Assembly (NCBI GenBank): GCA_027366035.1
Contig: DAHXLK010000023.1
Coordinates: 1-55,434 of the forward strand
Length of the DNA: 55,434 nt
Direction of reading: 5' to 3'
Source: Chlamydiota bacterium
GTDB taxonomy: Bacteria; Chlamydiota; Chlamydiia; Chlamydiales; SM23-39
The translations under genes and the position numbers were made by a program. The notes under the pieces were generated by a model, which was given only the letters and a program-made list of their open reading frames with translations, had not been told where the DNA came from and did not search any database. Below, piece after piece: positions 712 to 39,521 of the stretch (its first letter is position 1; each line of letters begins with the position of its first letter).

Positions 712-877
712 GGGACTGTTGAAATCTTTAGCTTTGCCGTTAAAATTTGAGCCTTGCAAAGTCGGTTTGATTTTTTTGAAAGCGACATATCCTGCCAAGG
801 TATAGGAACTTTCAAAAAGATCAAATCCGGGGAAGCAAGGGTAAAATTTTAACCAACCGGGAGATCGAAATAGTCCC
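712..877 (-). mobile_element. ~165-bp palindromic MITE/RPE-like element, copy 1 (full length)
   Basis: Ends GGGACTGTTGAAATCT...AGATCGAAATAGTCCC; internal sequence shared with 8 other copies. Confidence 0.9.
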
Positions 878-903
878 TTTATGCGAGTGGTCTCATCTTT
901 TTT

Positions 904-1269
904 TCATAGTTGATTTTTCAATTCATGAGATGGAGTTTCTTTGGCGAGCAATAAAAAAAGGAAAATCATAAGAAAACCAATCAAACTAAGACTAGGAATA
1001 ATCGGCCTATAGGAACATAGGATCCCATTACAACTGCCAAAAAAAATTTGATAAATAGCAATCCCTCCGCCAAAAAGAGGTAAAAAAAGAAAATAAGGTA
1101 TTAGCCATCTCTGATAAAAAGAAAAGGCAAGAAAACCCACAAGGGTCAAAAAACAAATCCTTTGATAAAGACATAAGTTACAAGCCTCCCAATGCATTAC
1201 TAGGGTAAAAAAGAAGCTAAAAAATGCCCCCGTACTAGCTATCAATAATGCCAATCCAAGATACTTCAT
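904..1269 (-). CDS. dsbB: DsbB-family disulfide bond formation membrane protein
   Basis: WEACNLCLYQR (CxxC-x-YQR) motif, four hydrophobic segments and a second Cys pair; ATG at 1269 chosen. Confidence 0.75.
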   Translation of the reverse strand: MKYLGLALLIASTGAFFSFFFTLVMHWEACNLCLYQRICFLTLVGFLAFSFYQRWLIPYFLFLPLFGGGIAIYQIFFGSCNGILCSYRPIIPSLSLIGFLMIFLFLLLAKETPSHELKNQL

Positions 1270-2499
1270 TTGACTTTTCAATTTCTTAGAGATATCATAG
1301 AGAAAAAACTAAAAACCTTGCAACCTAAGACTTATACTAAAGAAAAACATGGCATCCAACTAGATGCCATCGATAATCATGCTTTCTATGTCATACAAAA
1401 ACTGCGGCAGGCCGGTTATGAAGCCTATCTAGTCGGCGGCAGCATCCGTGATTTGCTCTTGCAAACTACACCGAAAGACTTCGATATCTCTACCTCGGCA
1501 AAGCCCGAAGAGATCAAAAAGTTATTTCGAGGATGTATCCTTATCGGCAAACGGTTTCGATTAGCCCACATCCGCTTTGGGAAAAAAGTGATCGAAGTCT
1601 CCACCTTCCGCTCCGGAGATATCGAAAACTCTACCTTCATCGTACGAGATAATGACTGGGGGTCGGCAGAAGAAGATGTCCTTCGAAGAGATTTTACCAT
1701 CAACGGCCTCTTCTACGATCCGCAGAAAGAATTGCTACTCGATTATGTCGGCGGCTACCTCGATAGCCAAAAAAGGATACTAAGGACGATAGGAAACCCG
1801 GAAATTAGGTTCAGGCAAGACCCTGTCAGAATGATCCGCCTCATCAAATTCCGTGCCCGTTTTGCCCTGAACATCGACCCGGCTGCTGAAGAGGCTCTCC
1901 ATAAATGTAAAGAAGATATCATCAAAAGCTCCCAAGCAAGGATATTAGAAGAGCTCCTCCGGATGTTAGAATCGGGTTCTTCAGAGCCCTTCTTCCGCTA
2001 CCTTAGCGACTACGGCCTTTTGTACCTTTTGATGCCATCTTTAGCCAGGTACCTTACCGATAAACCTGAAGAGACCTTCTCCCTCCTTAAACAGGTGGAT
2101 AAAAATCCTAAAGGGATCCAGCGGCCTATTTTGATGTCGTGTCTTGTCTTTCCCCTTTTTTCTGAAAGGCTCCATGCCCAATCCCAAAAAGAAAAAAATA
2201 TACACCTCGGAATCATCACTGAAGAAGCTAACCACTCTATCGACGCCATCTTCCGCCCTTTTTTTTCCATTCCTAGAAAGATGAAAGGTATTATGGCCTC
2301 CCTCTTAGCTTCCCAATTTCGCTTTACCCCCCTTTCTGATAAGTTCAAAAAACGCCTCCGGATCCCTCGCGATCCCTCTTTTCCGCTATCTTTAGAATTC
2401 TTTAAACTACGAGCAGAAATCTCCTCCCATCTTTTCGAAACCTATCACCTCTGGCATGAAACGCATAAAAAAAGCCCTCATCACCATAGAAGGAGATAA
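1270..2499 (+). CDS. pcnB: Poly(A) polymerase PcnB
   Basis: LVGGSIRDLLL, KDFDIST, LIGKRFRLAHIRF (PAP signature), RRDFTINGL and DPVRMIR motifs; start is uncertain. Confidence 0.92.
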   Translation: MTFQFLRDIIEKKLKTLQPKTYTKEKHGIQLDAIDNHAFYVIQKLRQAGYEAYLVGGSIRDLLLQTTPKDFDISTSAKPEEIKKLFRGCILIGKRFRLAHIRFGKKVIEVSTFRSGDIENSTFIVRDNDWGSAEEDVLRRDFTINGLFYDPQKELLLDYVGGYLDSQKRILRTIGNPEIRFRQDPVRMIRLIKFRARFALNIDPAAEEALHKCKEDIIKSSQARILEELLRMLESGSSEPFFRYLSDYGLLYLLMPSLARYLTDKPEETFSLLKQVDKNPKGIQRPILMSCLVFPLFSERLHAQSQKEKNIHLGIITEEANHSIDAIFRPFFSIPRKMKGIMASLLASQFRFTPLSDKFKKRLRIPRDPSFPLSLEFFKLRAEISSHLFETYHLWHETHKKSPHHHRRR

Positions 2500-2504
2500 A
2501 AAAA

Positions 2505-3242
2505 GTGCTGTCAAAAAATATGCAGTTTATAGGGCCCTCCTTTAAAAAAGGGCCCTACCCTGCCCTCTTCTACTTTGCTTTATCTAAAGAAGAGACTCTG
2601 CATCAAGATCCCTATAACCAGTTAGTTCAGTTCTTGGCAGATAGTCCCATCCGTATCTTCTCCTTCACCCTCCCCTTCCACGAAAAACCGTTCGATAAAA
2701 ATACTGCGATGAAAAAATGGGCTGAAGAAATGGAAAAAGGACACGATTTCTTTCGCCCTTTTTTAGATCAAGTAAAAGATGCGATAAAGTCTCTTATACA
2801 AAATAACCTCACCTATGAAGATACCATCGCGGTAGCGGGGCTGTCTCGAGGGGGGATGGTCGCCTCCCACGTTGCGGCTGAAAACCCCGATATCCGCTAC
2901 ATTCTCGAGTTTGCCCCCGTCACCAACCTCTCTTTTATGAAAAACTTTCACCATATTTCCGATCATCCTCTCGTGAAAAAATATTCGGTCTACTCCCTAG
3001 TACCTCTACTTTGTGATAGACATATTCGCATCTATATCGGCAACTACGACAAGACGGTTGGGACGAAAAATAGCTTTTTATTTTTAGAACAACTAAGCCA
3101 GACAGCCTTGGCACAAAGGATCAAACCACCCAAGATAGAGATGGTCATTTCTCCCGCCATCGGCTATCAAGGACATGGAACTTCTCCTGAAACTTTTAAA
3201 GCAGGTGCCGATTGGATCTTAAAAAAACTCACCTCTTTATAA
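2505..3242 (+). CDS. Alpha/beta hydrolase (esterase-like)
   Basis: GLSRGG nucleophile elbow, D in YDKTVG, and H in QGHGT. Confidence 0.75.
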   Translation: MLSKNMQFIGPSFKKGPYPALFYFALSKEETLHQDPYNQLVQFLADSPIRIFSFTLPFHEKPFDKNTAMKKWAEEMEKGHDFFRPFLDQVKDAIKSLIQNNLTYEDTIAVAGLSRGGMVASHVAAENPDIRYILEFAPVTNLSFMKNFHHISDHPLVKKYSVYSLVPLLCDRHIRIYIGNYDKTVGTKNSFLFLEQLSQTALAQRIKPPKIEMVISPAIGYQGHGTSPETFKAGADWILKKLTSL

Positions 3243-4339
3243 TCGCTCAAGAGCCCAGCGGCGATCTCCATGGGGCAGAACTCGTCAAAGCCCTAAAAGA
3301 AAAAGCCCCCTCCCTACACGTCACAGCCATCGGCGGCCCTCATATGAGGGAACTCGATGTCGAAATGGTGGGAAAGATGGAAGATTTTATGGTCATGGGA
3401 TTTTGGGACGTCCTTTTAGCGTTGCCTAGACTCATACGCCTCTTTTTCCGGGTAAAAAGAAAGATATTATCTCTAAACCCCCAAGGGGTGATCTGCATTG
3501 ACTACCCCGGTTTCAATCTCCGTTTAGAGAGGTCTCTTCGAAAAAGTGGTTATCCGGGCACTCTCATCCACTATATCTGCCCTACCGTCTGGGCCTGGGG
3601 GAAAAAAAGGATACCGATTTTGGCAAAAAATCTTGACCTCCTTTTGACCCTGTTCCCCTTTGAACCGGCCTCGTTTGCCCATACAACCCTGACGGTAAAA
3701 TATGTAGGCAACCCTCTCCTCTTTCTCATTCAAAATCATGCCTATAAACAAATTTCATTAAAAAAAGACCCTGCCCTGTCCCTTGTCGCCCTGTTTCCCG
3801 GAAGTAGAGATACCGAGATCCTCCGCAACCTTCCTTTGCAGCTGCAAGCGGTAAAAGGACTTCCCGTCCAAATCGCCATCTCTTGCAAAAATTTTGTTCT
3901 AATCAAAAAAATCTTGAAAGAAGAAGGGGTCTCTACAGCTACCCTCATCCACCCACAAGAAAACTATGACCTCATGAAACATACTGATTTTGCGATAGCT
4001 ACTTCCGGAACCATCACCTTAGAGCTGGCTTTGCATCTGGTCCCCACCATCGTCACTTTCGCAATAAAACGATGGGACCAGTTTTTGGCTCAAAAAATAT
4101 TTCGTATCGACCTTCCCCACTACTGCCTCGTCAATATCCTAGCGCAAAAAAGGATTTTTCCCGAACTATTTGGCACGGAGCTTACCCTGCGAAAACTGCA
4201 GAAGACGGCCGCTACATTTTTACAAGAAGAAAAAAGGGATAGCTGCAGAAAAGAGTGTGCTATACTACCCACCTTATTAAAAGGAGATAATCCCCCACAA
4301 AAAGCAGCGGAAGCAATTCTTTGGAAAATGCTGCCATGA
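3212..4339 (+). CDS. lpxB: Lipid-A-disaccharide synthase
   Basis: EPSGDLHGA, IDYPGFNL, CPTVWAW, LFPGSR and ATSGTITLELAL motifs. Confidence 0.95.
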   Translation: MDLKKTHLFIIAQEPSGDLHGAELVKALKEKAPSLHVTAIGGPHMRELDVEMVGKMEDFMVMGFWDVLLALPRLIRLFFRVKRKILSLNPQGVICIDYPGFNLRLERSLRKSGYPGTLIHYICPTVWAWGKKRIPILAKNLDLLLTLFPFEPASFAHTTLTVKYVGNPLLFLIQNHAYKQISLKKDPALSLVALFPGSRDTEILRNLPLQLQAVKGLPVQIAISCKNFVLIKKILKEEGVSTATLIHPQENYDLMKHTDFAIATSGTITLELALHLVPTIVTFAIKRWDQFLAQKIFRIDLPHYCLVNILAQKRIFPELFGTELTLRKLQKTAATFLQEEKRDSCRKECAILPTLLKGDNPPQKAAEAILWKMLP

Positions 4340-4393
4340 CTGTCGAAAAACTACCTTTCTTTTTATGAAAATAGCGCCTATACTCATTTATCC

Positions 4394-4849
4394 ATGGAAA
4401 CGTCATCTAAAATTTTTGTTGATCGACTGCAACAAGGCAAAGTAGAAAAAGTTAAAGAAAATTTTGATCCCGCTATCTTACAAGTCGAAGAAAAAGATCT
4501 ACAATTTCCCGAAAAAGTAGCTGTCTTGGGGGGGGCCTATCTCGCTGAAGACCACCTCATCCTTTGTTTTAAAATATCTACAAGAGCCTTAATGCCCTGT
4601 ACGATCTGTAATGAGAGGATCCTAGTTCCCTTAAAAGTAGAAAAGTTTTATCATACTGTCCCAATAGCTGAACTCTCATCCCCCATCTTCGACTACCTAG
4701 AACCCTTAAGAGAGGCCCTGTTGCTGGAAGTTCCTAAATATGTCGAATGTAATGACGGCAACTGTAGTGAGAGAAAAAATATAGAAAAATATTTAAAAAT
4801 AAGACCCAACCACGAAACCCACTTCCCCTTTTCCGGGTTGGAAAATTAG
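4394..4849 (+). CDS. YceD/DUF177 family protein
   Basis: CTIC motif and LREALLLEVP..C motif; conserved position upstream of rpmF. Confidence 0.8.
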   Translation: METSSKIFVDRLQQGKVEKVKENFDPAILQVEEKDLQFPEKVAVLGGAYLAEDHLILCFKISTRALMPCTICNERILVPLKVEKFYHTVPIAELSSPIFDYLEPLREALLLEVPKYVECNDGNCSERKNIEKYLKIRPNHETHFPFSGLEN

Positions 4850-4861
4850 GAGATTTATTTT

Positions 4862-5026
4862 ATGGCAGTCCCTAGAAACCGTACTTCCAATGCAAGAAAA
4901 AATTCTAGGCGTTCACATATGGCAAAAAAACCCAAAAATTTGTCAGAATGTCCCAATTGTGGCAAAATGAGATTACCCCACAGGATTTGCCCCTTTTGTG
5001 GCCAGTACAAAAATAATAATGCCTAG
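4862..5026 (+). CDS. rpmF: 50S ribosomal protein L32 (54 aa, not in ORF track)
   Basis: MAVPRNRTSNARKNSRRSH...CPNCG..LPHRICPFCGQY; AGGAG RBS upstream. Confidence 0.97.
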   Translation: MAVPRNRTSNARKNSRRSHMAKKPKNLSECPNCGKMRLPHRICPFCGQYKNNNA

Positions 5027-6008
5027 AATCGGTATCGACCTGATGGGAAGCGAAAACGCCCCCCGGCTCCTTTTAGGAGCCGTTTTCGAGCTCATCCTGA
5101 CTTTACACCTACCTAGCGCTCGATTCTTCCTGTTGGGCCCCCCCCCGCTGCAAAAAGAATGCGAAAGCCTCCTCACCCGTTTTTCTAAAGCTAAAGGGCA
5201 GATCTTTTTCCAAGAAGCTGAAGAGGTAATCGAAGCTGACGAAAACCCTTTAACCGCTCTAAGACACAAGAAAAACTCCTCTATGGCTAAAGGGATCTTG
5301 CTTTTAAAAGAAGGCAAGCTAGACGCCTTTGTCTCCGCAGGAAATACCGGAGCCATAATAGCGCTATCTTCTTTACACCTACCGTTGTTATCAGATACCG
5401 TCCGCCCTGCGCTCCTCGCTCTAATGCCGACAAAAAAGCAACCTTTAGCCGTCCTCGATATTGGAGCTAATACCCAATATACCGCTGACCATTTGGTACA
5501 ATTTGCAAAAATGGGTGCTGCCTATCAGATGTCTCGAGGGATCAAAGACCCCAAGATTGGCCTTTTGAATATTGGCCATGAAGCTCTCAAAGGGACCTCG
5601 GAGGTCCGATGCGCCTATCAAAAACTGCAATCCTTCCCCAATTTTCGAGGAAATATCGAGGCAAAAGAGGTCTTTCAAGGAGAGGTCGATGTCCTTATTA
5701 CCGACGGCTTTACCGGAAATGTCTTTTTAAAAACAGCCGAAGGGATCGCCAACTTAATACTCGATCGACTGAAGGAAAATATTTCGGAGCAAGAATTTTC
5801 CATTTTAGAACCCTATCTTAACGATCTGCAAAAACACCTGCACTATGCCGAATACCCCGGAGCCCTCTTAGCCGGATTACAAGGGATTGTTATCAAATGC
5901 CACGGCTACTCGAGCCCCAAAGCGATCATGAACGGGATCCGAGGGGCCCTGGAATTAGTAGAGCAAAAGTTTCTAGAGAAATATCTGAAAATTTTTGGTA
6001 GAATATAA
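5019..6008 (+). CDS. plsX: Phosphate acyltransferase PlsX
   Basis: RIGIDLMGSE, VSAGNTGA, RPAL, DGFTGNVFLK and IKCHG motifs; ATG at 5019 overlaps the rpmF end. Confidence 0.96.
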   Translation: MPRIGIDLMGSENAPRLLLGAVFELILTLHLPSARFFLLGPPPLQKECESLLTRFSKAKGQIFFQEAEEVIEADENPLTALRHKKNSSMAKGILLLKEGKLDAFVSAGNTGAIIALSSLHLPLLSDTVRPALLALMPTKKQPLAVLDIGANTQYTADHLVQFAKMGAAYQMSRGIKDPKIGLLNIGHEALKGTSEVRCAYQKLQSFPNFRGNIEAKEVFQGEVDVLITDGFTGNVFLKTAEGIANLILDRLKENISEQEFSILEPYLNDLQKHLHYAEYPGALLAGLQGIVIKCHGYSSPKAIMNGIRGALELVEQKFLEKYLKIFGRI

Positions 6009-6010
6009 AC

Positions 6011-7549
6011 ATGCAAGAAATCCTTATAAATATTGAATCGAAAGAAACTAGATATGCCTTCTTAAAACATGGAAAGCTCCATGACCTCATCTTAGAAAGG
6101 AAAAAATCTCGGCAAATCACCGGCAATATCTATCGGGGTAAGGTAATCAATATCCTCCACAATATCCAATCTGCCTTTATCGATATTAACGAAGAGGAAA
6201 ATGGGTTTATCCATATCTCCGATATCTTGGAAAACACCAAGAAATTTGAAGAGATGTTTGAGATGGACTTCGACCTCGATTACGACATCTCCAAAGTCGA
6301 TGAAAAGAAAAAAAGTGCGAAAGATATCTCTCAGCTCCTCAAGATAGACCAGCCCGTCCTCGTACAAGTAGTCAAGGAGCCCATCGGAACCAAAGGGGCA
6401 AGACTCACCTCTAATATCTCCATTGCCGGAAGATACCTCGTCTTACTCCCCAATAACCCCCGCCGAGGCGTCTCTAGAAAAATCGAAAACAAGGGAGATA
6501 GAGAGAGGTTAAAAAAATTAATCCGCTCTTTTGAAATGCCGCAAGATATAGGACTCATCTGTAGAACGGCAAGCAGCAACGCCACCACCGAAATGCTCAT
6601 TGAAGAGGCAACCGATCTCCTTAGGTCCTGGGAAACTACCATAGATAATTTCCATAAATCGACCGGCCCTACCTGCCTCTTTGAGGAATCGGACCTCATC
6701 AAACGGGCCCTCGTTTATGCCGTCGATAAAAAAGTGGACCGCCTCTTAGTCGATGATTACTCCACCTTTCAAAGATGTAAAAGGCTTTATCACAAATACA
6801 TGGAAGAACATCCTCTCAAGATCGAATTTTACCGCGATAAGGTGCCGATGTTTCAAAGGTTCCATGTTGAAAGAGAGATCGATAAAGCTTTAAAGCGAAA
6901 AATCTGGCTCTCTTGTGGCGGCTATCTTTTTTTTGAAAAGACAGAAGCGATGTATACCGTCGATGTCAATTCGGGGAGGAGCTCTAGCCTTACTACTACA
7001 AATGTGGAAGAGAGTTTAGTCAGGATTAACTTAGAGGCGGCGGAAGAGATAGCGAGGCAGCTTCGTATTCGAAATATTGGTGGACTTATCATTTGCGATT
7101 TCATTGACATGCAGATAAGGAAAAATCAACGGAGGGTATTAGAAAAGCTAAGAGAGTGTATGAAGGAAGACTCTGCAAGATGCACCATCTTAGGGATGAG
7201 TGAATTTGGCCTTGTTGAAATGACCCGGCAGAGGAATCGAGAGTCGTTATTACAAACATTATTTACTTTTTGTCCTTATTGCCAAGGGAGCGGCCATGTG
7301 AAAAATCACGAGAGCGTATCGGTAGAAATTGAACGAATGCTCAAAAAACTCATCTATTCAGAGAAAGAACTTTCGTTAAAACTAGCGATCCATCCGGAGC
7401 TAGATAAATTTTTGGAACTCTCCGATAAACAATTTTTCCTGAAACTATCTCGGTTGAGCGGCGCCCATTTGGAATTTGTCATCGATGATTCGCTTCACTT
7501 GAATCAATTTGAATTTTTCTCTTTATCCAGCCATGAACGAATCGACTGA
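6011..7549 (+). CDS. rne: Ribonuclease E/G family
   Basis: GNIYRGKV S1 domain, KEPIGTKGARLT, DVNSG, GGLIICDFIDM and CPYCQG motifs. Confidence 0.93.
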   Translation: MQEILINIESKETRYAFLKHGKLHDLILERKKSRQITGNIYRGKVINILHNIQSAFIDINEEENGFIHISDILENTKKFEEMFEMDFDLDYDISKVDEKKKSAKDISQLLKIDQPVLVQVVKEPIGTKGARLTSNISIAGRYLVLLPNNPRRGVSRKIENKGDRERLKKLIRSFEMPQDIGLICRTASSNATTEMLIEEATDLLRSWETTIDNFHKSTGPTCLFEESDLIKRALVYAVDKKVDRLLVDDYSTFQRCKRLYHKYMEEHPLKIEFYRDKVPMFQRFHVEREIDKALKRKIWLSCGGYLFFEKTEAMYTVDVNSGRSSSLTTTNVEESLVRINLEAAEEIARQLRIRNIGGLIICDFIDMQIRKNQRRVLEKLRECMKEDSARCTILGMSEFGLVEMTRQRNRESLLQTLFTFCPYCQGSGHVKNHESVSVEIERMLKKLIYSEKELSLKLAIHPELDKFLELSDKQFFLKLSRLSGAHLEFVIDDSLHLNQFEFFSLSSHERID

Positions 7550-8546
7550 AGAGAAGGTGTTTTTAGCCGAATGCCAAAAAATCTATTTAGAAAAAAAACT
7601 TCCTAAAAAAACCTACCAGATATTTTTAGGTTTATTTAACCAGTACAAAAAGGCTGCGCATGGCATTGACATACAAGAGATTACCGCTATCTTCCAGACC
7701 CTTTTTTCCTTCATTATCCAGCAGACTCAGCATCCTTATCCTTTTCCCCCATATCATGAAAAGATCCAATCCCCTTTTGATTACTACAACTTTGGCCTAA
7801 AATTTTTACAACCTCTCATCGATTTTAAAAACAGTAAAGTTTTAGGGCTGGAAAACGTAAAAGAGATAGTGGAGAAATTGCAAAAAAAAGAAAATGTGAT
7901 CCTCTTTGCCAACCACCAGACAGAAATCGACCCTTTAATTATTGATTTATTACTACAAGACTCTTACCCCGAATTTGGAAAAGATATCATCTTTGTTGCT
8001 GGAGAAAGGGTCACTACAGATCCCGCCGCCGTCCCTTTTAGTTTGGGGAGAAATCTCATCTGTATCTACTCCAAAAAATATATCGACCATCCTGTAGCCT
8101 TAAAAGAAAAAAAGCAGCTTCATAACCAACAAAGTATGAAGAGGATGTCAGAACTTTTAAGTGAAGGGGGAAAAGCGATCTATGTCGCTCCGAGTGGTGG
8201 AAGAGATAGGAAAAATCTTGCGGGAGTTATCGAAATCGACCCTTTTGATCCACAGAGTATCGAAATGTTTTTTCTTATGGCTAAACGGTCGAAAAAAGGG
8301 GCCCATTTTTATCCGTTAGCTTTGGCTACCTATGAGCTCCTCCCCCCTCCTGAAACTATTCAAAAAGAGCTTGAAGAAACTAGACCTGTGAATTTTACCG
8401 CCGTTCATCTGGCCTTTGGAGCAAAAATTTCTATGACCCACTTTCCGGGGTCTGATAGTTTAGATCGTCATCTTTTTCGCAAAAATCGTGCAGAATACAT
8501 CTGGAATCTGGTAAAAGAAGCCTATAACCAATTGATCCTATGTTAA
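7533..8546 (+). CDS. plsB: Glycerol-3-phosphate acyltransferase, soluble plastid/chlamydial type
   Basis: NHQTEID (HxxxxD), PFSLGRNLICIYSKK and APSGGRDR motifs. Confidence 0.88.
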   Translation: MNESTEEKVFLAECQKIYLEKKLPKKTYQIFLGLFNQYKKAAHGIDIQEITAIFQTLFSFIIQQTQHPYPFPPYHEKIQSPFDYYNFGLKFLQPLIDFKNSKVLGLENVKEIVEKLQKKENVILFANHQTEIDPLIIDLLLQDSYPEFGKDIIFVAGERVTTDPAAVPFSLGRNLICIYSKKYIDHPVALKEKKQLHNQQSMKRMSELLSEGGKAIYVAPSGGRDRKNLAGVIEIDPFDPQSIEMFFLMAKRSKKGAHFYPLALATYELLPPPETIQKELEETRPVNFTAVHLAFGAKISMTHFPGSDSLDRHLFRKNRAEYIWNLVKEAYNQLILC

Positions 8547-35260: not shown

Positions 35261-37829
35261 TAAAAAGATGACGATAGGTATCTTCATTTTCCATATAACG
35301 TCGCACGACAGCTAAAGAGGGAACTCCATGTTCCCACCATTGCTCAAAAGAGTCGCCCCTTGTGGCGGAGGCTTGTGCCTGTTGTAAAGATACTTCACGA
35401 ATTTTATCGGCAAACGTCATTCCGGGAAAAAGTACTGTAAGGATTTGAAGGTATTGCAATAATCTATCAAAGTTTTCAATAACTACATTCTGTAGTATCT
35501 CTGTAATTGATTCTCCATATTCCGAAAGGTTCCATTCCAGATGTTGGTGAAAATATTCCGCCCACTGCATAGGGGAAGAATAGACATCTTCTTCTTGCAG
35601 AAAAAACGGTAATGTCCCGGCGATATAGGCCATCTTATCTACATCTGCAACCTGTGGTAAGGTTAAAAAAGGAGGCGTATTATGCCCGGTTTGAGTATCA
35701 GAGGCAACAATTTCCATGCATTGACAGTTACGAAGACGCCTGTCTTCATATACCCTTACCTGTTTCTTTATTTTATCGTATTCTTCCGGAGATAGCTCTA
35801 CGACAACTCCTAAATATTGCCTAGCTATGGGATATGGGTTCCCTGTCAACATATTACCCGTGCTCCTATTCACTAACATAGAAGAAACGGAATTATTTGA
35901 AGTAGTTAACCTTACGGGATCTACTAACAACTCCTCTGTAATCTGATCTTTAATGCCCATCTCTTGCTCATCATAAATTTTTTCTACCGTAACGTAACGC
36001 TGCATAGCCTGTGCCATTTGGGAACGAACACGCTGCAACTGATTCAGTGCGAGTGTGCAGGAAGATTTTATCCGGCTATTATCCGGCATTAATTGAGAAC
36101 ACTGCCGCACATTACGCTCTATGTACCGGACCTTCTGCTGCCAGCTGTACAGTTGTTCATGGGATAATGTATCGACATCAAGGGCATATATATCACTGCA
36201 TTCCGAAAGATCAAAAGAAGTCAATTGCATGAGTTGTTCTCTAGATATTACCGACAAGATGTGAACCCTCCTCTCTAGAGAAAGGTCATTGATAATAGAG
36301 GTAATGGCCTCTATAGAAGACTCCTGCAACACTTCAGACAATATCTCTTTGGGAAAACAGGAGATACAAGTAAAAAAATGAGGACGAAAAAAACGGGATT
36401 CTAAGGCAGCGCCAATTATTAACGAAGAAAAACCTTGTAAGGATATGGTATTTATAGGTGTATGGTCTCTATCTATACTCCGCGCTGCCAACCACAATGC
36501 CTGCGCAGCAGACATTTTCTGATTTTCAAAAAAAACATCTGATTGTAATACAGCATACTCACTCATAAGCTCTTGACGTACAGAGCTACCCCTTTTAAGG
36601 TAAGGCATAATAGCATAGAGGACAGTAGGATTTAGATAAGTATCATTGAGTGGTATGAAATCATCAGAAAAAGCAAGGACGTTATTGTTACATTTAAAAT
36701 AAAGGAGGTTAGGCATATTCCATATAGAATTAGACAACGTTTTTAATAGATTATATGAGAGATCAAGAGTCTGTAACGCATAAAGATTTGATATAAAATC
36801 GGGAAGAACTGTTAATAAGTTGTTAGAAAAATTAAATGTGTCAAGCCTAGTCAGATTGCTCATAGAACAAGGCAATTTTTTAATCTGATTGTGCGATAGA
36901 TCTAAATGATGCAACATAGCCCATCCGGACATATTCTGCGGCAGATCCGTCAATTTATTGTAAGAAAGATTCAAAATACGAAGTAGGCTCAAATGCTCCA
37001 TACTTTGAGACAAGCTAGCCAATCTATTGTGAGAAATATCTAATTTGCGTAACTTCCTAAGTTCTTTTATACTATCCGGAATTGTTTTCAGTAAGTTGTT
37101 CTTTATATTTAAAGTGTGTAGTTCAACAAGACTCCCTATCCTATTTGGTAATTGTGTTATTTTGTTTTGAGACACATCTAATACTTTAAGTGCTATAAGA
37201 TCACAAAAAGAATCCGGTAATACTTGCAATTTATTAGACGCAAGCATCAAACCCTGCAAAGAACGCAGCCCACCTAAAGTATTGGGCAAAATGCTCAGAC
37301 AGTTATCATAAGCGCTGATTTTTCGTAAATGAGAGAGCCGGCTCAAAGTATTCGGTAAAGTAATCAAATCATTCTTTTGTACTGACAAAATTTCTAAATA
37401 CGATAATTGCGAAATTTGTAGGGAGATCGAAGACAAATTATTGTTCGATAGATCTAATTCTTTTAAGGATGACAACATCCAGATTGCTTCCGGTAAAGAA
37501 TCTAATTCTAACCCTTGCAGTAGGAGGGTATCTCTGTCATTATCGTAGGCATCTAAGATAGTGTCATAGGCAATTTGGTATTTCTCCTTTTGCCCATGTG
37601 CTACAAGCCATGCATCTAAACTCTCTAAAAATCCCGGAGGATAATTCGTCTGTTCCTCGATCTCCATATTTTGCGATGACGCTGATTGAGATAAAACCTC
37701 CTGCGCTATGGCATCCACAGCCATATAACCCTCTCTTTCTGGGAATGCCTCCGGAGGAGGAATAAGAGGAGCCTCAACAGCAGGGATAAGGGTAGGAGGA
37801 GCCAAAAGCGCATCGTAAAATGGGTTCAT
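35250..37829 (-). CDS. LRR protein with IpaH/SspH-like N-cap and putative U-box-like motif (candidate E3-ligase effector)
   Basis: About 12 23-aa LxxLxLxxNxLxxLP repeats; DQITEELLVDPV motif in the C-terminal third. Confidence 0.8.
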   Translation of the reverse strand: MNPFYDALLAPPTLIPAVEAPLIPPPEAFPEREGYMAVDAIAQEVLSQSASSQNMEIEEQTNYPPGFLESLDAWLVAHGQKEKYQIAYDTILDAYDNDRDTLLLQGLELDSLPEAIWMLSSLKELDLSNNNLSSISLQISQLSYLEILSVQKNDLITLPNTLSRLSHLRKISAYDNCLSILPNTLGGLRSLQGLMLASNKLQVLPDSFCDLIALKVLDVSQNKITQLPNRIGSLVELHTLNIKNNLLKTIPDSIKELRKLRKLDISHNRLASLSQSMEHLSLLRILNLSYNKLTDLPQNMSGWAMLHHLDLSHNQIKKLPCSMSNLTRLDTFNFSNNLLTVLPDFISNLYALQTLDLSYNLLKTLSNSIWNMPNLLYFKCNNNVLAFSDDFIPLNDTYLNPTVLYAIMPYLKRGSSVRQELMSEYAVLQSDVFFENQKMSAAQALWLAARSIDRDHTPINTISLQGFSSLIIGAALESRFFRPHFFTCISCFPKEILSEVLQESSIEAITSIINDLSLERRVHILSVISREQLMQLTSFDLSECSDIYALDVDTLSHEQLYSWQQKVRYIERNVRQCSQLMPDNSRIKSSCTLALNQLQRVRSQMAQAMQRYVTVEKIYDEQEMGIKDQITEELLVDPVRLTTSNNSVSSMLVNRSTGNMLTGNPYPIARQYLGVVVELSPEEYDKIKKQVRVYEDRRLRNCQCMEIVASDTQTGHNTPPFLTLPQVADVDKMAYIAGTLPFFLQEEDVYSSPMQWAEYFHQHLEWNLSEYGESITEILQNVVIENFDRLLQYLQILTVLFPGMTFADKIREVSLQQAQASATRGDSFEQWWEHGVPSLAVVRRYMENEDTYRHLFRNC

Positions 37830-37960
37830 TAATTATCTTCTTTAGATTAACTAATATATTAATTATATATTAAATTTTTTATTTAAAATATATTTGTTTT
37901 ATACTCTATTTAAAATATTATGCTTTAAAAGATTAAAAAAGAAAACGTTTTGAGCTCTTA

Positions 37961-38087
37961 TTGGTTAAAATTTTACCCTTGCTTCCTCGTAATTTTTTAA
38001 AAGTGTCTATAACTTAGCAGGATATGTCATTTTCAAAACAATCAAACCGGCTAAAGCAAGGCTCAAATTTTAAGAGCTATGCTAAAG
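37961..38087 (+). mobile_element. Palindromic element copy 8 (both TIRs lost)
   Basis: TTGGTTAAAATTTTACCCTTGCTTCC...GGATATGTCA...GCAAGGCTCAAATTTTAA. Confidence 0.82.
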
Positions 38088-38137
38088 TGTAATAGGCAAG
38101 ACTTAATCTGACGTTTATGGTAAATTGAAAACGCTGA

Positions 38138-38455
38138 TCACGAAGTTCAGGACAGCCGCCTCCACCACCACCTCCTCCTTTTTGTATTTGCCCACCAGGT
38201 TGGTCGTGCCCTCTTCCTGACCAATGCTGTAATAACGACCCTTATATTCCTAAGTGTTCTACTGAGTTCTGCCTACCTAAATGCCCTCCATTTCAATATA
38301 CAGATCTAACCGCAGTTGTTTGTTTAACTATGATTCCTGCCACTGTTTATGCATTCTTAACGCTCATTGGAAGCTGTGTCAGTTCCTCTTGTCCTACAAA
38401 AAGTTCTCAGACCGCACCTTCTTCGGCAACATATATTGCATTTTGCATCGATTAA
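38138..38455 (+). pseudogene. Start-less Cys/Pro-rich frame followed by a TM helix (105 codons)
   Basis: Hand translation SRSSGQPPPPPPPFCICPPGWSCPLPDQCCNNDPYIPKCSTEFCLPKCPPFQYTDLTAVVCLTMIPATVYAFLTLIGSC...; preceded by an in-frame TGA. Confidence 0.55.
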
Positions 38456-38621
38456 GAGGCTGTTTCAATCTCCCATTTTGTTAAAATTGTGCCATTGTTT
38501 CCCCGGATTTGATCTTTTTAAAGGTGCCTATAAATTAGTAGGATATGTCATTTTCAAAAAAATAAAACCGGCTTTGCAAGGTTCAAATTTTTTGAGCAAA
38601 GCTAAAGATCGAAATAATCCT
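38456..38621 (+). mobile_element. Palindromic element copy 9 (full length, degenerate)
   Basis: GAGGCTGTTTCAATCT...AGATCGAAATAATCCT. Confidence 0.88.
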
Positions 38622-38723
38622 AAAAAAGAAATCGCTATATTTTTTAAAAATTCAAAAAGGTAAACTTTGACTCTTTTATCTATGAACTACTCCAGAATTT
38701 GCATTGTATAATTAAAAGGTAAT

Positions 38724-39521
38724 ATGTCTTCTTTATATACTATCCCTATTTCACCCATCATCGGCCCCTCAACTCCACAACTAGAAAAACAGTCACAACG
38801 ATCTTCCAAAACCCTATTAGAACTACCCGTCGAAGTGCTTGTAAACATCATTAGAAAAATTGGTATAAACAAATTTAAATTAAGGCAACTTTCTAAGTAT
38901 ATGAAATTTGTTGTCGATTATTCGTCGCTAGCGTACAGCATACAATCGCAGTACCTGCCCGATAAAGCTGAGATAGCGGCCCGTTTTTCAAATTATCAAC
39001 CACCTAGAATCTTCATTAATGGGAAAATTAGCATTATTGGGTTAAAAATAATCTTACAATATACTCCACAATTGACAACTCTTTCTTTAGCGTTTTGTTC
39101 CGATGAACACTTACGCATTATCAGTGAATCCGGATTAAAATCCTCTCTTCAGCGCCTAGATATATCCTGTGGCTATGACATTTCTAACGACTCAGTCAAA
39201 CATCTTATAACCCTTGTACATCTTCAAACATTTAAACTACTTAATGGTATCTCGATCACCGACAAAGCTATCCCCCACTTTACAACATTTATTCAAAATA
39301 GCCGGCTGAAGAGTTTGGACCTGTCAGGTTGCTTTATGATTTCCAATCATGGTCTTTCATATCTTCAATCATATGAAAATCTTAAAGAGTTGTTTTTGTC
39401 TTGTGTAAACAAGAGAATTACCCTAGATTTTCTTCTGAAGAAAATCCCTCAAATGAAATGGGTGCAGTTTCCGGCATTAAATAATTTATGTCAGTATTTT
39501 GTTGGCATTGTTTGCTTTTAA
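38724..39521 (+). CDS. F-box/LRR (FBXL-like) protein
   Basis: F-box LLELPVEVLVNIIRKI..LRQLSKYM; Cys-containing LRRs LQRLDISCGYDISND and LKSLDLSGCFMISN. Confidence 0.85.
   Translation: MSSLYTIPISPIIGPSTPQLEKQSQRSSKTLLELPVEVLVNIIRKIGINKFKLRQLSKYMKFVVDYSSLAYSIQSQYLPDKAEIAARFSNYQPPRIFINGKISIIGLKIILQYTPQLTTLSLAFCSDEHLRIISESGLKSSLQRLDISCGYDISNDSVKHLITLVHLQTFKLLNGISITDKAIPHFTTFIQNSRLKSLDLSGCFMISNHGLSYLQSYENLKELFLSCVNKRITLDFLLKKIPQMKWVQFPALNNLCQYFVGIVCF

What the first reader, a model, noticed from the sequence alone, without database searches (positions are those of the whole stretch)
712..38621. Abundant ~165-bp fully palindromic mobile element (9 copies in 55 kb): a possible chlamydial analogue of Rickettsia palindromic elements
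Seen: copies at 712, 23669, 27125, 29743, 30615, 31531, 35096, 37961 and 38456, in both orientations. The element pairs with itself along its whole length in nested arms: a 16-bp TIR; TTAAAATTTTACCCTTGC / GCAAGGCTCAAATTTTAA (16/18); CCGGATTTGATCTTTTT..AAG / CTTTCAAAAAAATCAAACCGG; and a central CCT-TAGC-AGG loop. Exact 5-bp target duplications flank copies 3 (TTAAA) and 4 (ATACC), and a 4/5 match flanks copy 2. No transposase lies inside it, and its ends do not match either IS5 in this window. Known: RPEs, ERIC and Correia elements are similar-sized hairpin MITEs. Inference: this is a non-autonomous element moved in trans by a DDE transposase (GGRRCTGTT ends recall IS1182/IS5-type IRs) and may be very numerous genome-wide. 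I know of no described chlamydial family like it, but I could not search.
Basis: partly seen in the sequence, partly recalled or inferred. Interest (0 to 1): 0.9.

Follow-up and report, generated by a model that had tools for sequence, protein, structure and literature searches.

The report
Hairpin MITE family in environmental chlamydiae
A 165-base, non-coding, hairpin-forming mobile element makes up about 2.5% of this small chlamydial genome, and it belongs to an apparently undescribed family of such elements found in many environmental chlamydiae.

Summary
The window has 6 full and 3 partial copies. The 1.32-Mb assembly has 256 loci (141 full length) on 51 of 57 contigs, 2.55% of its bases. 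The element is a MITE of about 165 nt with terminal inverted repeats. Its two arms are 75% alike, so it is an imperfect hairpin, not a full palindrome. It makes 5-bp AT-rich target duplications (28 of 126 exact, against 1.4 expected). Loci lie mostly between genes and often right at stop codons. Its ends and duplication length match a 1187-bp IS5-family insertion sequence that is intact and multi-copy in two Simkaniaceae genomes. This genome keeps only a degraded copy of that IS, whose end equals the MITE end over 16 nt.

The element is also a divergent member of a superfamily. A covariance model finds it in 43 of 151 sampled Chlamydiota genomes and in none of 5 non-chlamydial controls. Members share a conserved polarity, covarying stems and an invariant-flanked apical stem-loop, and they carry one of two types of end (4-bp or 5-bp duplications). 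Five literature searches and Rfam turned up nothing like it. No empty site was found, and two thirds of the copies lack a clean duplication.

The parts
712..877 (-). Full-length MITE copy 1; no target duplication
   Evidence: nhmmer model positions 1-166, E 5e-55; sequence read. Lies 27 nt from the 3' end of a DsbB-like ORF, 904-1281.
23669..23836 (-). Full-length MITE copy 2; flanking 5-mers match in 4 of 5
   Evidence: nhmmer 1-166, E 1e-52; flanks. Starts 2 nt after the stop of the LptF/LptG-like ORF 22513-23667.
27125..27289 (+). Full-length MITE copy 3; exact 5-nt duplication at 27120-27124 and 27290-27294
   Evidence: Covariance-model match 27125-27289 at 133.6 bits. Fold.
29743..29910 (+). 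Full-length MITE copy 4, inserted in the 3' part of an LRR_6 gene; exact 5-nt duplication at 29738-29742 and 29911-29915
   Evidence: Differs by one base in a T run from the copy at C11:9245-9412, which has different flanks. ORF 29176-29799 now ends at a stop inside the element.
30615..30746 (+). Truncated copy 5: left tip present, last 35 or so positions missing
   Evidence: nhmmer model positions 1-132, E 4e-38; sequence.
31520..31611 (-). Half copy 6: one arm only
   Evidence: nhmmer model positions 1-87, E 2e-19; sequence.
35096..35260 (-). Full-length MITE copy 7, wedged between two convergent ORFs and overlapping both stop codons; no duplication
   Evidence: nhmmer 1-168, E 9e-50. The ORFs are 34341-35096 (+) and 35250-37829 (-).
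37948..38094 (+). Degraded copy 8: both tips lost, internal deletion
   Evidence: nhmmer model positions 8-161 in 147 nt, E 4e-29.
38456..38623 (+). Full-length but diverged copy 9; mutated tips, no duplication
   Evidence: nhmmer 1-168, E 1e-49; sequence.

Best explanation
This is a miniature inverted-repeat transposable element (MITE). It is about 165 nt long, has no gene of its own, and its two arms pair into one long imperfect hairpin.

Inferred mechanism. The DDE transposase of an IS5-family insertion sequence binds the two inverted tips and moves the element. It makes a staggered cut of 5 bp in AT-rich DNA, and repair of that cut leaves the 5-bp duplication. Because the preferred targets resemble stop codons, and because insertions inside genes are lost, copies pile up just past gene ends, above all between convergent genes.

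After insertion, copies decay neutrally. The partner IS is now only a wreck in this assembly, so most copies are fossils, though at least one pair is nearly identical.

The element is one divergent lineage of a hairpin-MITE superfamily spread through environmental chlamydiae. The internal body is conserved across that superfamily, while the tips come in two types that go with 4-bp or 5-bp duplications.

What is shown: the repeat, its ends, the duplications, where copies sit, the matching IS, and the superfamily.

What is inferred: that this transposase is the one that moves it, and that it moved recently.
For: Copies.
- 256 loci, 141 of them full length, in both orientations (73 + and 68 -), on 51 of 57 contigs.
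- In an alignment of 139 flanked copies, conservation stops sharply at the tips.

Target duplications.
- The flanking 5-mers are identical in 28 of 126 copies, against a shuffled mean of 1.4 (maximum 4).
- There is no such signal at lengths 2-4 or 6-9.
- A further 13 copies have one mismatch, against 8.0 expected. The exact duplications are 84% A+T.

Partner IS.
- C2:10864-10879 equals the commonest MITE tip over 16 nt. It lies 155 nt past the stop codon of an N-terminally truncated 259-aa DUF772/DDE_Tnp_1 ORF.
- Relatives of that ORF at 78-79% identity are intact (324-330 aa) and present in at least 6 copies each in G171 and G141.
- That IS is 1187 bp long. Its spacer from stop codon to end is 153 nt. 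Its left end shares its first 11 letters with the MITE tip.
- It carries exact 5-nt AT-rich duplications in 4 of 7 copies read, and 4 of 5 matching in a fifth.
- Elements with the same end type occur in the IS's own genus: one copy each in G141 and G171, and at least 11 full copies at 98-100% identity in G221. Of 7 G221 copies read, 4 have exact 5-nt duplications.

No coding capacity. There is no transposase inside the element, and no Y1 transposase in the genome.

Where copies sit.
- 191 of 256 loci are strictly intergenic, in a genome that is about 88% coding by crude ORF calls.
- Density is 2.8 per kb in convergent spacers, against 1.1-1.3 per kb in tandem and divergent spacers.
- A stop codon lies within 5 nt of the element edge, or inside it, in 36 of 137 full copies. 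For random points in spacers the figure is 1.4%.

Recent movement. Copies at C30:29743 and C11:9245 differ by one base yet have different flanks.

Neutral decay after insertion. Among 117 copies, changes mostly break pairs: 563 broken cells against 48 compensated. Double changes number 80, against 66.7 expected.
Against: - 85 of 126 copies have two or more mismatches between their flanking 5-mers, about what chance gives. Shifting boundaries by up to 2 nt rescues only 7 of them. I found no reciprocal flank swaps (0, against 0.3 expected).
- The assembly (94.5% complete) holds no intact partner transposase. The local remnant lacks its N-terminus and is fused to a piece of another IS.
- G221 has a young burst of copies, yet no such transposase was found in it.
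- End identity with the intact IS is limited to 11 letters, and that IS sits in a different chlamydial family.
- NCBIfam places the transposase below the cut-off of both IS1182 (155 bits against 270) and an IS5 model (135 against 140).
- Outside this genome, elements with this end type sometimes show 4-nt duplications (2 of 7 in G221).
- No empty site was seen.
Confidence: 0.8

Rival explanations
1. The hairpin is itself a selected, structured nucleic acid, either RNA in read-through transcripts or single-stranded DNA during movement. On this reading its body carries a function or a recognition site, and the transposon ends are merely its vehicle. This rival overlaps with the best explanation and does not exclude it.
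For: Covariation across 11 family representatives.
- 89.5% of cells pair, against 76.4% in shuffles (0 of 500 reach the observed value).
- 34 of 55 pairs show changes on both sides, against 15.5 expected (0 of 500).
- Slid controls give only 10-20 such pairs.

Conserved polarity. In all 35 sources one strand fits the covariance model better, by 12-88 bits where both strands are listed. This includes elements not used to build the model.

Apex. It has the same letters on both flanks, 3 freely covarying base pairs and a 4-6 nt loop. The 3' flank is present in 31 of 32 distinct elements, counted by eye.

Internal loop. An asymmetric internal loop is conserved in sequence on both sides in 9-10 of the 11 families.
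Against: - Within this genome, copies decay without compensation. Any constraint therefore acts on the propagating master copies, not on the inserted ones.
- There is no orientation bias relative to neighbouring genes (48 same, 44 opposite).
- Promoter-like and terminator-like sites are at background level.
- No Rfam family matches.
- Related sequences can beat shuffles without any structure, though the slid controls argue against that here.
- This genome's own lineage has lost the conserved internal-loop letters.
Confidence: 0.3
2. It is a MITE, but a different transposase moves it. Candidates are the IS5-type gene in the window (28329-29147) or an IS that did not assemble.
For: - The genome holds several other DDE_Tnp_1 genes or fragments (8 matches).
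- Near-identical MITE copies imply recent movement, yet the proposed partner is broken.
- 24 of 114 contig ends lie within 250 nt of an element, so repeats are under-assembled.
Against: - The window's IS has quite different 17-bp inverted ends.
- Only the G171-type IS shares both the end letters and the 5-bp duplication.
- tblastn found no further copy of either candidate type.
Confidence: 0.12
3. It is a REP/REPIN-like or other hairpin element, moved as single-stranded DNA by an HUH (Y1) transposase.
For: The hairpin runs the whole length of the element, and its apical stem-loop is conserved.
Against: - No Y1_Tnp match in the genome; the same search hit 6 of 14 control genomes.
- The element has terminal inverted repeats and target duplications, which HUH elements do not make (the latter point is established knowledge, recalled).
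- At 165 nt it is several times longer than REPs, which are 20-40 bp (passage of PMC3733652).
Confidence: 0.03
4. It is not mobile: the repeat spread by recombination or duplication, or is an assembly artefact.
For: Two thirds of copies lack a clean duplication.
Against: - 256 loci with unrelated flanks on 51 contigs.
- A sharp length mode at 165-166 nt (66 of 126 copies).
- Exact 5-nt duplications about 20 times above chance.
- Related families in many genomes, with copy numbers from 1 to more than 100 within one genus or family.
Confidence: 0.02

Closest known systems
Bacterial MITEs derived from, or cross-mobilised by, IS elements (general class; defined in PMC3733652, passages seen, with RUP, NEMIS and Bcr1 as examples)
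   Same: Small size, no coding capacity, terminal inverted repeats, target duplications, many dispersed copies, and ends shared with an autonomous IS.
   Different: The body is not a simple internal deletion of the partner IS: beyond the first 11 letters the IS ends and the MITE arms are unrelated. The same body occurs with two different end types and two duplication lengths across a phylum.
ERIC elements of Enterobacteriaceae (recalled, not tested here)
   Same: Imperfect palindromes of about 130-170 nt. They are conserved in sequence across many genera, vary greatly in copy number between species, are intergenic, and can form RNA hairpins.
   Different: ERIC has no agreed transposase partner. 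Here the ends and duplications point to an IS5-family enzyme. I ran no sequence comparison, because I held no ERIC sequence.
Correia / NEMIS elements of Neisseria (recalled; NEMIS is named in PMC3733652)
   Same: An abundant hairpin MITE of about 100-160 nt with inverted ends, sitting next to genes. It has a central protein-binding site, which makes it a precedent for a conserved centre.
   Different: Correia elements duplicate 2 bp (recalled) and are confined to one genus. This superfamily makes 4-bp or 5-bp duplications and spans many chlamydial families.
Rickettsia palindromic elements (RPE)
   Same: Palindromic repeats of similar size in a reduced genome of an obligate intracellular bacterium.
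   Different: Many RPEs are inserted in frame inside working genes (passage of PMC3733652). Here 0 of 256 loci lie inside an ORF longer than 170 aa, and the one clear genic insertion truncates its gene.
IS5-family insertion sequence of G171 (record CP073762.1, titled Simkaniaceae bacterium) and of G141
   Same: Same first 11 end letters, same 5-bp AT-rich duplications. A 79%-identical transposase remnant in this genome has a MITE-identical end.
   Different: It is 1187 bp long and encodes a 324-aa DDE transposase, whereas the MITE encodes nothing. NCBIfam scores it below the cut-offs of both IS5 and IS1182.

Membership tests
MITE | Short (about 70-300 bp) with no coding capacity | tested here: met
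   Length mode is 165-166 nt (66 of 126 copies). No transposase domain inside. One frame of the consensus is open for 54 codons, but it only gives rise to spurious 80-170 aa ORFs.
MITE | Terminal inverted repeats | tested here: met
   The tips pair over about 9 + 5 positions in the consensus, and conservation ends sharply at the tips. Positions 10-12 come in two variants at both ends.
MITE | Target site duplication of fixed length | tested here: met
   5 bp: 28 of 126 exact, against 1.4 expected. No signal at other lengths. However, 85 of 126 copies show no duplication.
MITE | Many dispersed copies with unrelated flanks | tested here: met
   256 loci on 51 of 57 contigs.
MITE | Ends and duplication length shared with an autonomous IS | tested here: met
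   The G171/G141 IS shares 11 end letters and 5-bp duplications. The C2 remnant shares 16 letters.
MITE | Presence/absence polymorphism (empty sites) | tested here: inconclusive
   The collection holds no genome of the same genus. Public-run contigs break at the elements and none skips one exactly. Flanks of a relative's copy do not align in its congeners. Indirect support comes from a pair of copies one base apart at different loci.
IS5 family (for the partner transposase) | DDE_Tnp_1 catalytic domain with a DUF772 N-terminal domain, scoring above a curated IS5 model | tested here: inconclusive
   Both Pfam domains are present in the local remnants. For the intact 324-aa protein, NCBIfam gives IS1182 155.4 bits (cut-off 270) and IS5_4 135.3 bits (cut-off 140). 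I could not consult ISfinder.
Rickettsia palindromic elements | In-frame insertion inside functional protein genes | tested here: not met
   20 loci lie 'inside an ORF', but every one of those ORFs is 80-170 aa and built largely from the element's own open frame. The LRR gene at 29176-29799 is truncated, not extended in frame.
REP/REPIN with RAYT | Associated Y1 (HUH) transposase; 20-40 bp palindromes; no target duplication | tested here: not met
   PF01797 finds nothing in the genome. The element is 165 nt long and has duplications.
Any Rfam RNA family | Match at the family's gathering score | tested here: not met
   0 matches in the window at gathering score. At the E-value threshold, the best hit is a plant microRNA precursor model at 32 bits against a gathering score of 144, which is a generic long-hairpin match.

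The most novel reading that the evidence does not exclude
The 165-nt body is a structured module that has been kept for a very long time across environmental chlamydiae. It has a fixed polarity, stems held together by compensatory change, a conserved asymmetric internal loop, and an apical stem-loop with invariant flanks. On this reading it survives by swapping its outermost tips to exploit whichever IS5-type transposase is available, giving two end types with 4-bp or 5-bp duplications. The structure, as single-stranded DNA or as RNA, would be needed for its propagation or would serve the host, for example in transcript processing or stability at gene ends. It would not be a by-product of having two similar ends.
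Probability: 0.3. Interest if true: 0.8.

Novelty: new member of a known kind. Interest (0 to 1): 0.6.

Why it matters
Chlamydiae are usually described as repeat-poor. The Waddlia genome paper says classical chlamydiae almost completely lack repetitive elements, and it counted only repeats over 200 bp (PMC2878342, passages). Expansion of transposable elements in chlamydiae was reported as new in 2022, on the basis of transposase genes alone (PMC9723776, abstract and passages).

A 165-nt element that gene-based surveys cannot see has several consequences here:
- It fills 2.5% of this genome.
- It lies within 250 nt of about a fifth of the contig ends.
- It sits on gene ends.
- It has cut at least one gene.

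Related elements occur in over a quarter of the sampled Chlamydiota genomes. This bears on assembly quality of chlamydial MAGs, on annotation of gene 3' ends, on genome rearrangement and reduction in these symbionts, and on gene flow between them. The partner transposase also has 63%-identical relatives in a Rickettsia endosymbiont.

The covariance model built here is a ready marker for these elements. The conserved structured core makes it possible to test directly whether bacterial MITEs need more than their tips.

Tried and rejected
Collection scan for the element by DNA pattern. I did not do this; see the last paragraph.

The search of earlier findings.

Empty sites, three attempts.
- No genome of the same genus is held.
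- The look-up of sequencing runs listed 4 DNA runs from one study, holding 0.07-0.34 of the sampled words. No RNA holder was listed.
- Laying those runs on window 22500-39500 gave short, low-depth contigs that stop at the elements. The only joints ran from element to element, and none skipped exactly one copy. This says nothing either way.
- For a relative's copy (L183), the flanks did not align in two genomes of its genus.

Missing duplications.
- I tested whether recombination between copies had swapped flanks. There were 0 reciprocal pairs among 85 copies, against a null of 0.3.
- Boundary shifts of up to 2 nt rescue only 7 of the 85. The deficit remains unexplained.

Selection on pairing inside this genome. 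Rejected: changes mostly break pairs.

Partner for the other end type.
- The second local transposase fragment (P0002, C16) has a similar-looking end on its far side.
- It was not found in 5 genomes rich in that end type. It is rare and distant in the order: 7 of 301 genomes at E 1e-20, the best at 44% identity and with stop codons.
- The DDE_Tnp_1 hits in those 5 genomes are fragments with no element arm beside them, apart from one half copy.
- That partner stays unidentified.

Other negative results.
- Promoter or terminator role: consensus scans are at background, 45 against 38.8 and 17 against 16.1.
- Plasmid collection: no match for either end type.
- Rfam: nothing.

Automatic end-finding on relatives. 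It slipped by a base or more in 18 of 41 rows, where the duplication extends the inverted repeat. I left those rows out of the 13-of-16 count. The G384 count (4 of 4) and most of the G229 duplications were read by eye.

Supplementary tables of PMC9723776 (transposase families of Rhabdochlamydia) are closed. They may name the IS.

Full report
THE REPEAT IS REAL

The repeat finder groups the nine places into overlapping families. A profile built from six window copies finds 457 matches counting both strands, which collapse to 256 non-overlapping loci in the 1,323,692-base, 57-contig assembly in which the window is contig C30.
- 141 loci cover the whole profile (73 on one strand, 68 on the other).
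- 152 loci cover at least 150 profile positions.
- Loci lie on 51 of 57 contigs and add up to 33,755 bases, 2.55% of the assembly.
- 24 of 114 contig ends lie within 250 nt of an element.

Its density (0.16 per kb) is slightly below the genome's (0.19 per kb).

ANATOMY

In an alignment of 139 flanked full copies, conservation drops to background exactly at the two tips. Both tips could be placed in 126 of the 139 copies, and the length mode is 165-166 nt (66 of 126).

The consensus folds into a single long imperfect hairpin.
- Consensus: -61.3 kcal/mol as RNA, -35.4 as DNA.
- 117 individual copies: mean -56.8, against -28.0 for shuffles.
- Window copy 3: z -7.9 as RNA and -4.7 as DNA.

It is not a perfect palindrome. 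The arms agree in 63 of 84 columns, and 17 fixed differences define a left and a right arm. Positions 10-12 of the tip occur in two variants at either end, in all combinations.

TRANSPOSITION SIGNATURE

The five bases before and after the element are identical in 28 of 126 copies. Shuffled pairings give a mean of 1.4 and a maximum of 4. Lengths 2-4 and 6-9 give no excess. Another 13 copies have one mismatch, against 8.0 expected. The exact duplications are 84% A+T.

Against this, 85 of 126 copies show no more flank similarity than chance. Neither boundary shifts (7 rescued) nor reciprocal flank exchange (0 pairs) explains it.

Copies average 91% identity to the consensus (range 70-98%) and 85% to each other. 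One pair, C30:29743 and C11:9245, differs by a single base in a T run while lying in unrelated flanks.

WHERE COPIES SIT

I used crude ORF calls: 1180 ORFs covering 88% of the assembly.
- 191 of 256 loci are strictly intergenic.
- The 20 loci 'inside an ORF' are all in 80-170 aa ORFs that exist mainly because one frame of the element is open.
- Convergent spacers carry 2.8 elements per kb, against 1.3 for tandem and 1.1 for divergent spacers. 57 of 110 convergent spacers hold at least one element.
- There is no orientation bias in tandem spacers (48 same, 44 opposite).
- A stop codon lies within 5 nt outside the element edge, or up to 40 nt inside it, in 36 of 137 full copies. For random spacer points the figure is 1.4%.

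In the window, copy 4 sits in the 3' part of an LRR_6 gene with an exact duplication, and the gene now ends at a stop inside the element. Copy 7 overlaps the stops of two convergent ORFs.

THE PARTNER

The genome has eight DDE_Tnp_1 matches and two DUF772 matches. The window's own IS5-type gene (272 aa, DUF4096 + DDE_Tnp_1) has different inverted ends.

The local remnant on contig C2:
- A solo tip identical to the commonest MITE tip over 16 nt lies 155 nt beyond the stop of a 259-aa, N-terminally truncated DUF772/DDE_Tnp_1 ORF.

Intact relatives:
- Searching 401 genomes of the order with that protein gave 20 with matches.
- These include at least 6 identical copies of a 324-aa ORF in G171 and at least 6 of a 330-aa ORF in G141, at 78-79% identity.
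- Copy-to-copy comparison bounds the IS at 1187 bp.
- Its left end shares its first 11 letters with the MITE tip, and its right end differs at position 4.
- The spacer from stop codon to end is 153 nt.
- 4 of 7 copies have exact 5-nt AT-rich duplications, and a fifth has 4 of 5.

NCBIfam scores the protein below the cut-offs of both IS1182 and IS5.

The search for related loci names G171's record as a Simkaniaceae MAG and another genome of that genus as Candidatus Neptunochlamydia. It also shows 53-69% identical multi-copy relatives in a Rickettsia endosymbiont, a Patescibacteria genome and several proteobacterial MAGs. NCBI taxonomy places Simkaniaceae in Chlamydiota. The 'chlamydial' label therefore holds.

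A SUPERFAMILY

BLAST with the window copy found little in 40 relatives. Across 400 genomes of the order it picked up partial matches in G384 (same family) and G229 (another family, 98 candidates).

Aligning these shows homologous elements of 160-170 nt whose arms differ in a compensatory way. With the G229 element as query, 16 of 400 genomes matched at E 1e-4 or better, across seven families. Only two candidates per genome were scored, so this is a floor.

Structure across eleven family representatives, aligned as A2:
- RNAalifold predicts 55 pairs, 34 of them with kept changes on both sides.
- Pair counting gives 89.5% paired cells, against 76.4% in shuffles.
- 34 pairs have both-sided changes, against 15.5 expected. 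None of 500 shuffles reaches either value, and slid controls give 10-20.

A covariance model built from A2 gave:
- Matches in 43 of 151 sampled genomes of the phylum at E 1e-3 or better. By my count of the table, 39 of these are at 1e-6 or better.
- 30 of 90 genera have a match.
- Family f7 has 13 of 22, f43 has 11 of 18, f31 has 5 of 17, and the window's own family f1 has 5 of 18.
- Family f35 has 0 of 27. Its main genus (0 of 23) has genomes of 1.0-1.2 Mb where listed. I guess, without testing, that these are the classical chlamydiae.

Five non-chlamydial genomes that carry the related transposase served as controls. They gave nothing below 1e-4 and two marginal 32-bit hits.

POLARITY AND APEX

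On 35 loci, every element fits the model better on one strand. The margin is 12-88 bits where both strands are listed, and this includes elements outside the training set.

In 32 distinct elements, the apex consists of the same few letters on each flank, three base pairs that vary freely but stay Watson-Crick (at least eight combinations), and a 4-6 nt loop. By eye, 31 of 32 keep the 3' flank. The exception (L211) has the whole apex flipped.

Nine or ten of the eleven families also keep an asymmetric internal loop whose letters are conserved on both sides. The window's lineage has lost it.

TWO END TYPES

Reading the ends of further elements separates two types.

First type (ends as in L207):
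- It goes with 4-nt duplications: 13 of 16 automatically bounded elements, and 4 of 4 in G384 by eye.

Second type (ends as in window copy 4):
- It is found in this genome, in G221 and G099 (Simkaniaceae) and in G063.
- G221 has at least 11 full copies at 98-100% identity.
- Of the 7 G221 copies read, 4 have exact 5-nt duplications, 2 have exact 4-nt ones, and one has 4 of 5.
- G141 and G171, which hold the intact IS, each have one copy of this type.
- No transposase of that kind was found in G221, G195, G269 or G063. G099 has fragments of it at contig ends.

PRIOR KNOWLEDGE

Five full-text searches found no description of a chlamydial MITE.
- The paper on transposable-element expansion in Rhabdochlamydia uses neither 'MITE' nor 'palindrom' (find mode).
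- The Waddlia genome paper counted only repeats over 200 bp (find mode).
- The REP survey mentions chlamydiae only in a reference title.
- I could not reach ISfinder or the supplementary files.

VERDICT

It is a new member of a known kind. It gains interest from its spread across a phylum and from a conserved, polar, covarying core that simple MITE models do not require.

Noticed in passing
window 28278-29151: A compact IS5-type insertion sequence of about 874 bp. It has perfect 17-bp inverted ends and a 272-aa DUF4096 + DDE_Tnp_1 transposase (ORF 28329-29147). It lies between the L13/S9 ribosomal protein genes and the LRR gene. Its ends are unrelated to the MITE ends.
   Followed up: partly
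window 29176-29995: An LRR_6 repeat gene is cut by MITE copy 4. If the element and one copy of the 5-mer are removed in silico, the frame runs on for 26 more codons to a stop near 29995.
   Followed up: partly
G000 contig C16:95703-96487 (L029 204-988): tRNA-Leu(TAA) is followed 8 nt later by half a MITE (72 nt). That half is fused directly to the truncated 3' side of a 203-aa IS5-type transposase fragment (P0002). The far end of this fragment recurs at 97% identity on C2 and C34. It may be a deletion intermediate or a nested insertion.
   Followed up: partly
G000, e.g. C55:32422-32587, C16:55929-56093, C46:68728-68894: A few copies score highly on both strands. About 8-10 of 117 copies carry left-arm letters in their right arm. 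This suggests that one arm is occasionally re-copied from the other.
   Followed up: partly
L211 (G093) and L025 (G229): The central 30 nt or so (the apex) lies in the opposite orientation to the arms, as if flipped within the hairpin.
   Followed up: no
L032 and L051 (G171 IS copies a and b): The 5-mers flanking two identical IS copies look exchanged between the copies. This would fit a rearrangement by recombination between them.
   Followed up: no
L064-L099 and L101-L118: The partner transposase has multi-copy relatives in a Rickettsia endosymbiont genome (63% identity, dozens of loci) and in a Patescibacteria genome (58%). This points to exchange of this IS among host-associated bacteria. 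The MITE model found nothing in those genomes.
   Followed up: partly
G221: A burst of copies 96-100% identical to each other, carrying the 5-bp-type ends, in an assembly where no matching transposase was found.
   Followed up: partly
L236 and L237 (G171 and G121): Two species of one genus share the same left flank at a copy of the element but have different right flanks. This may be an old orthologous insertion followed by a rearrangement.
   Followed up: no
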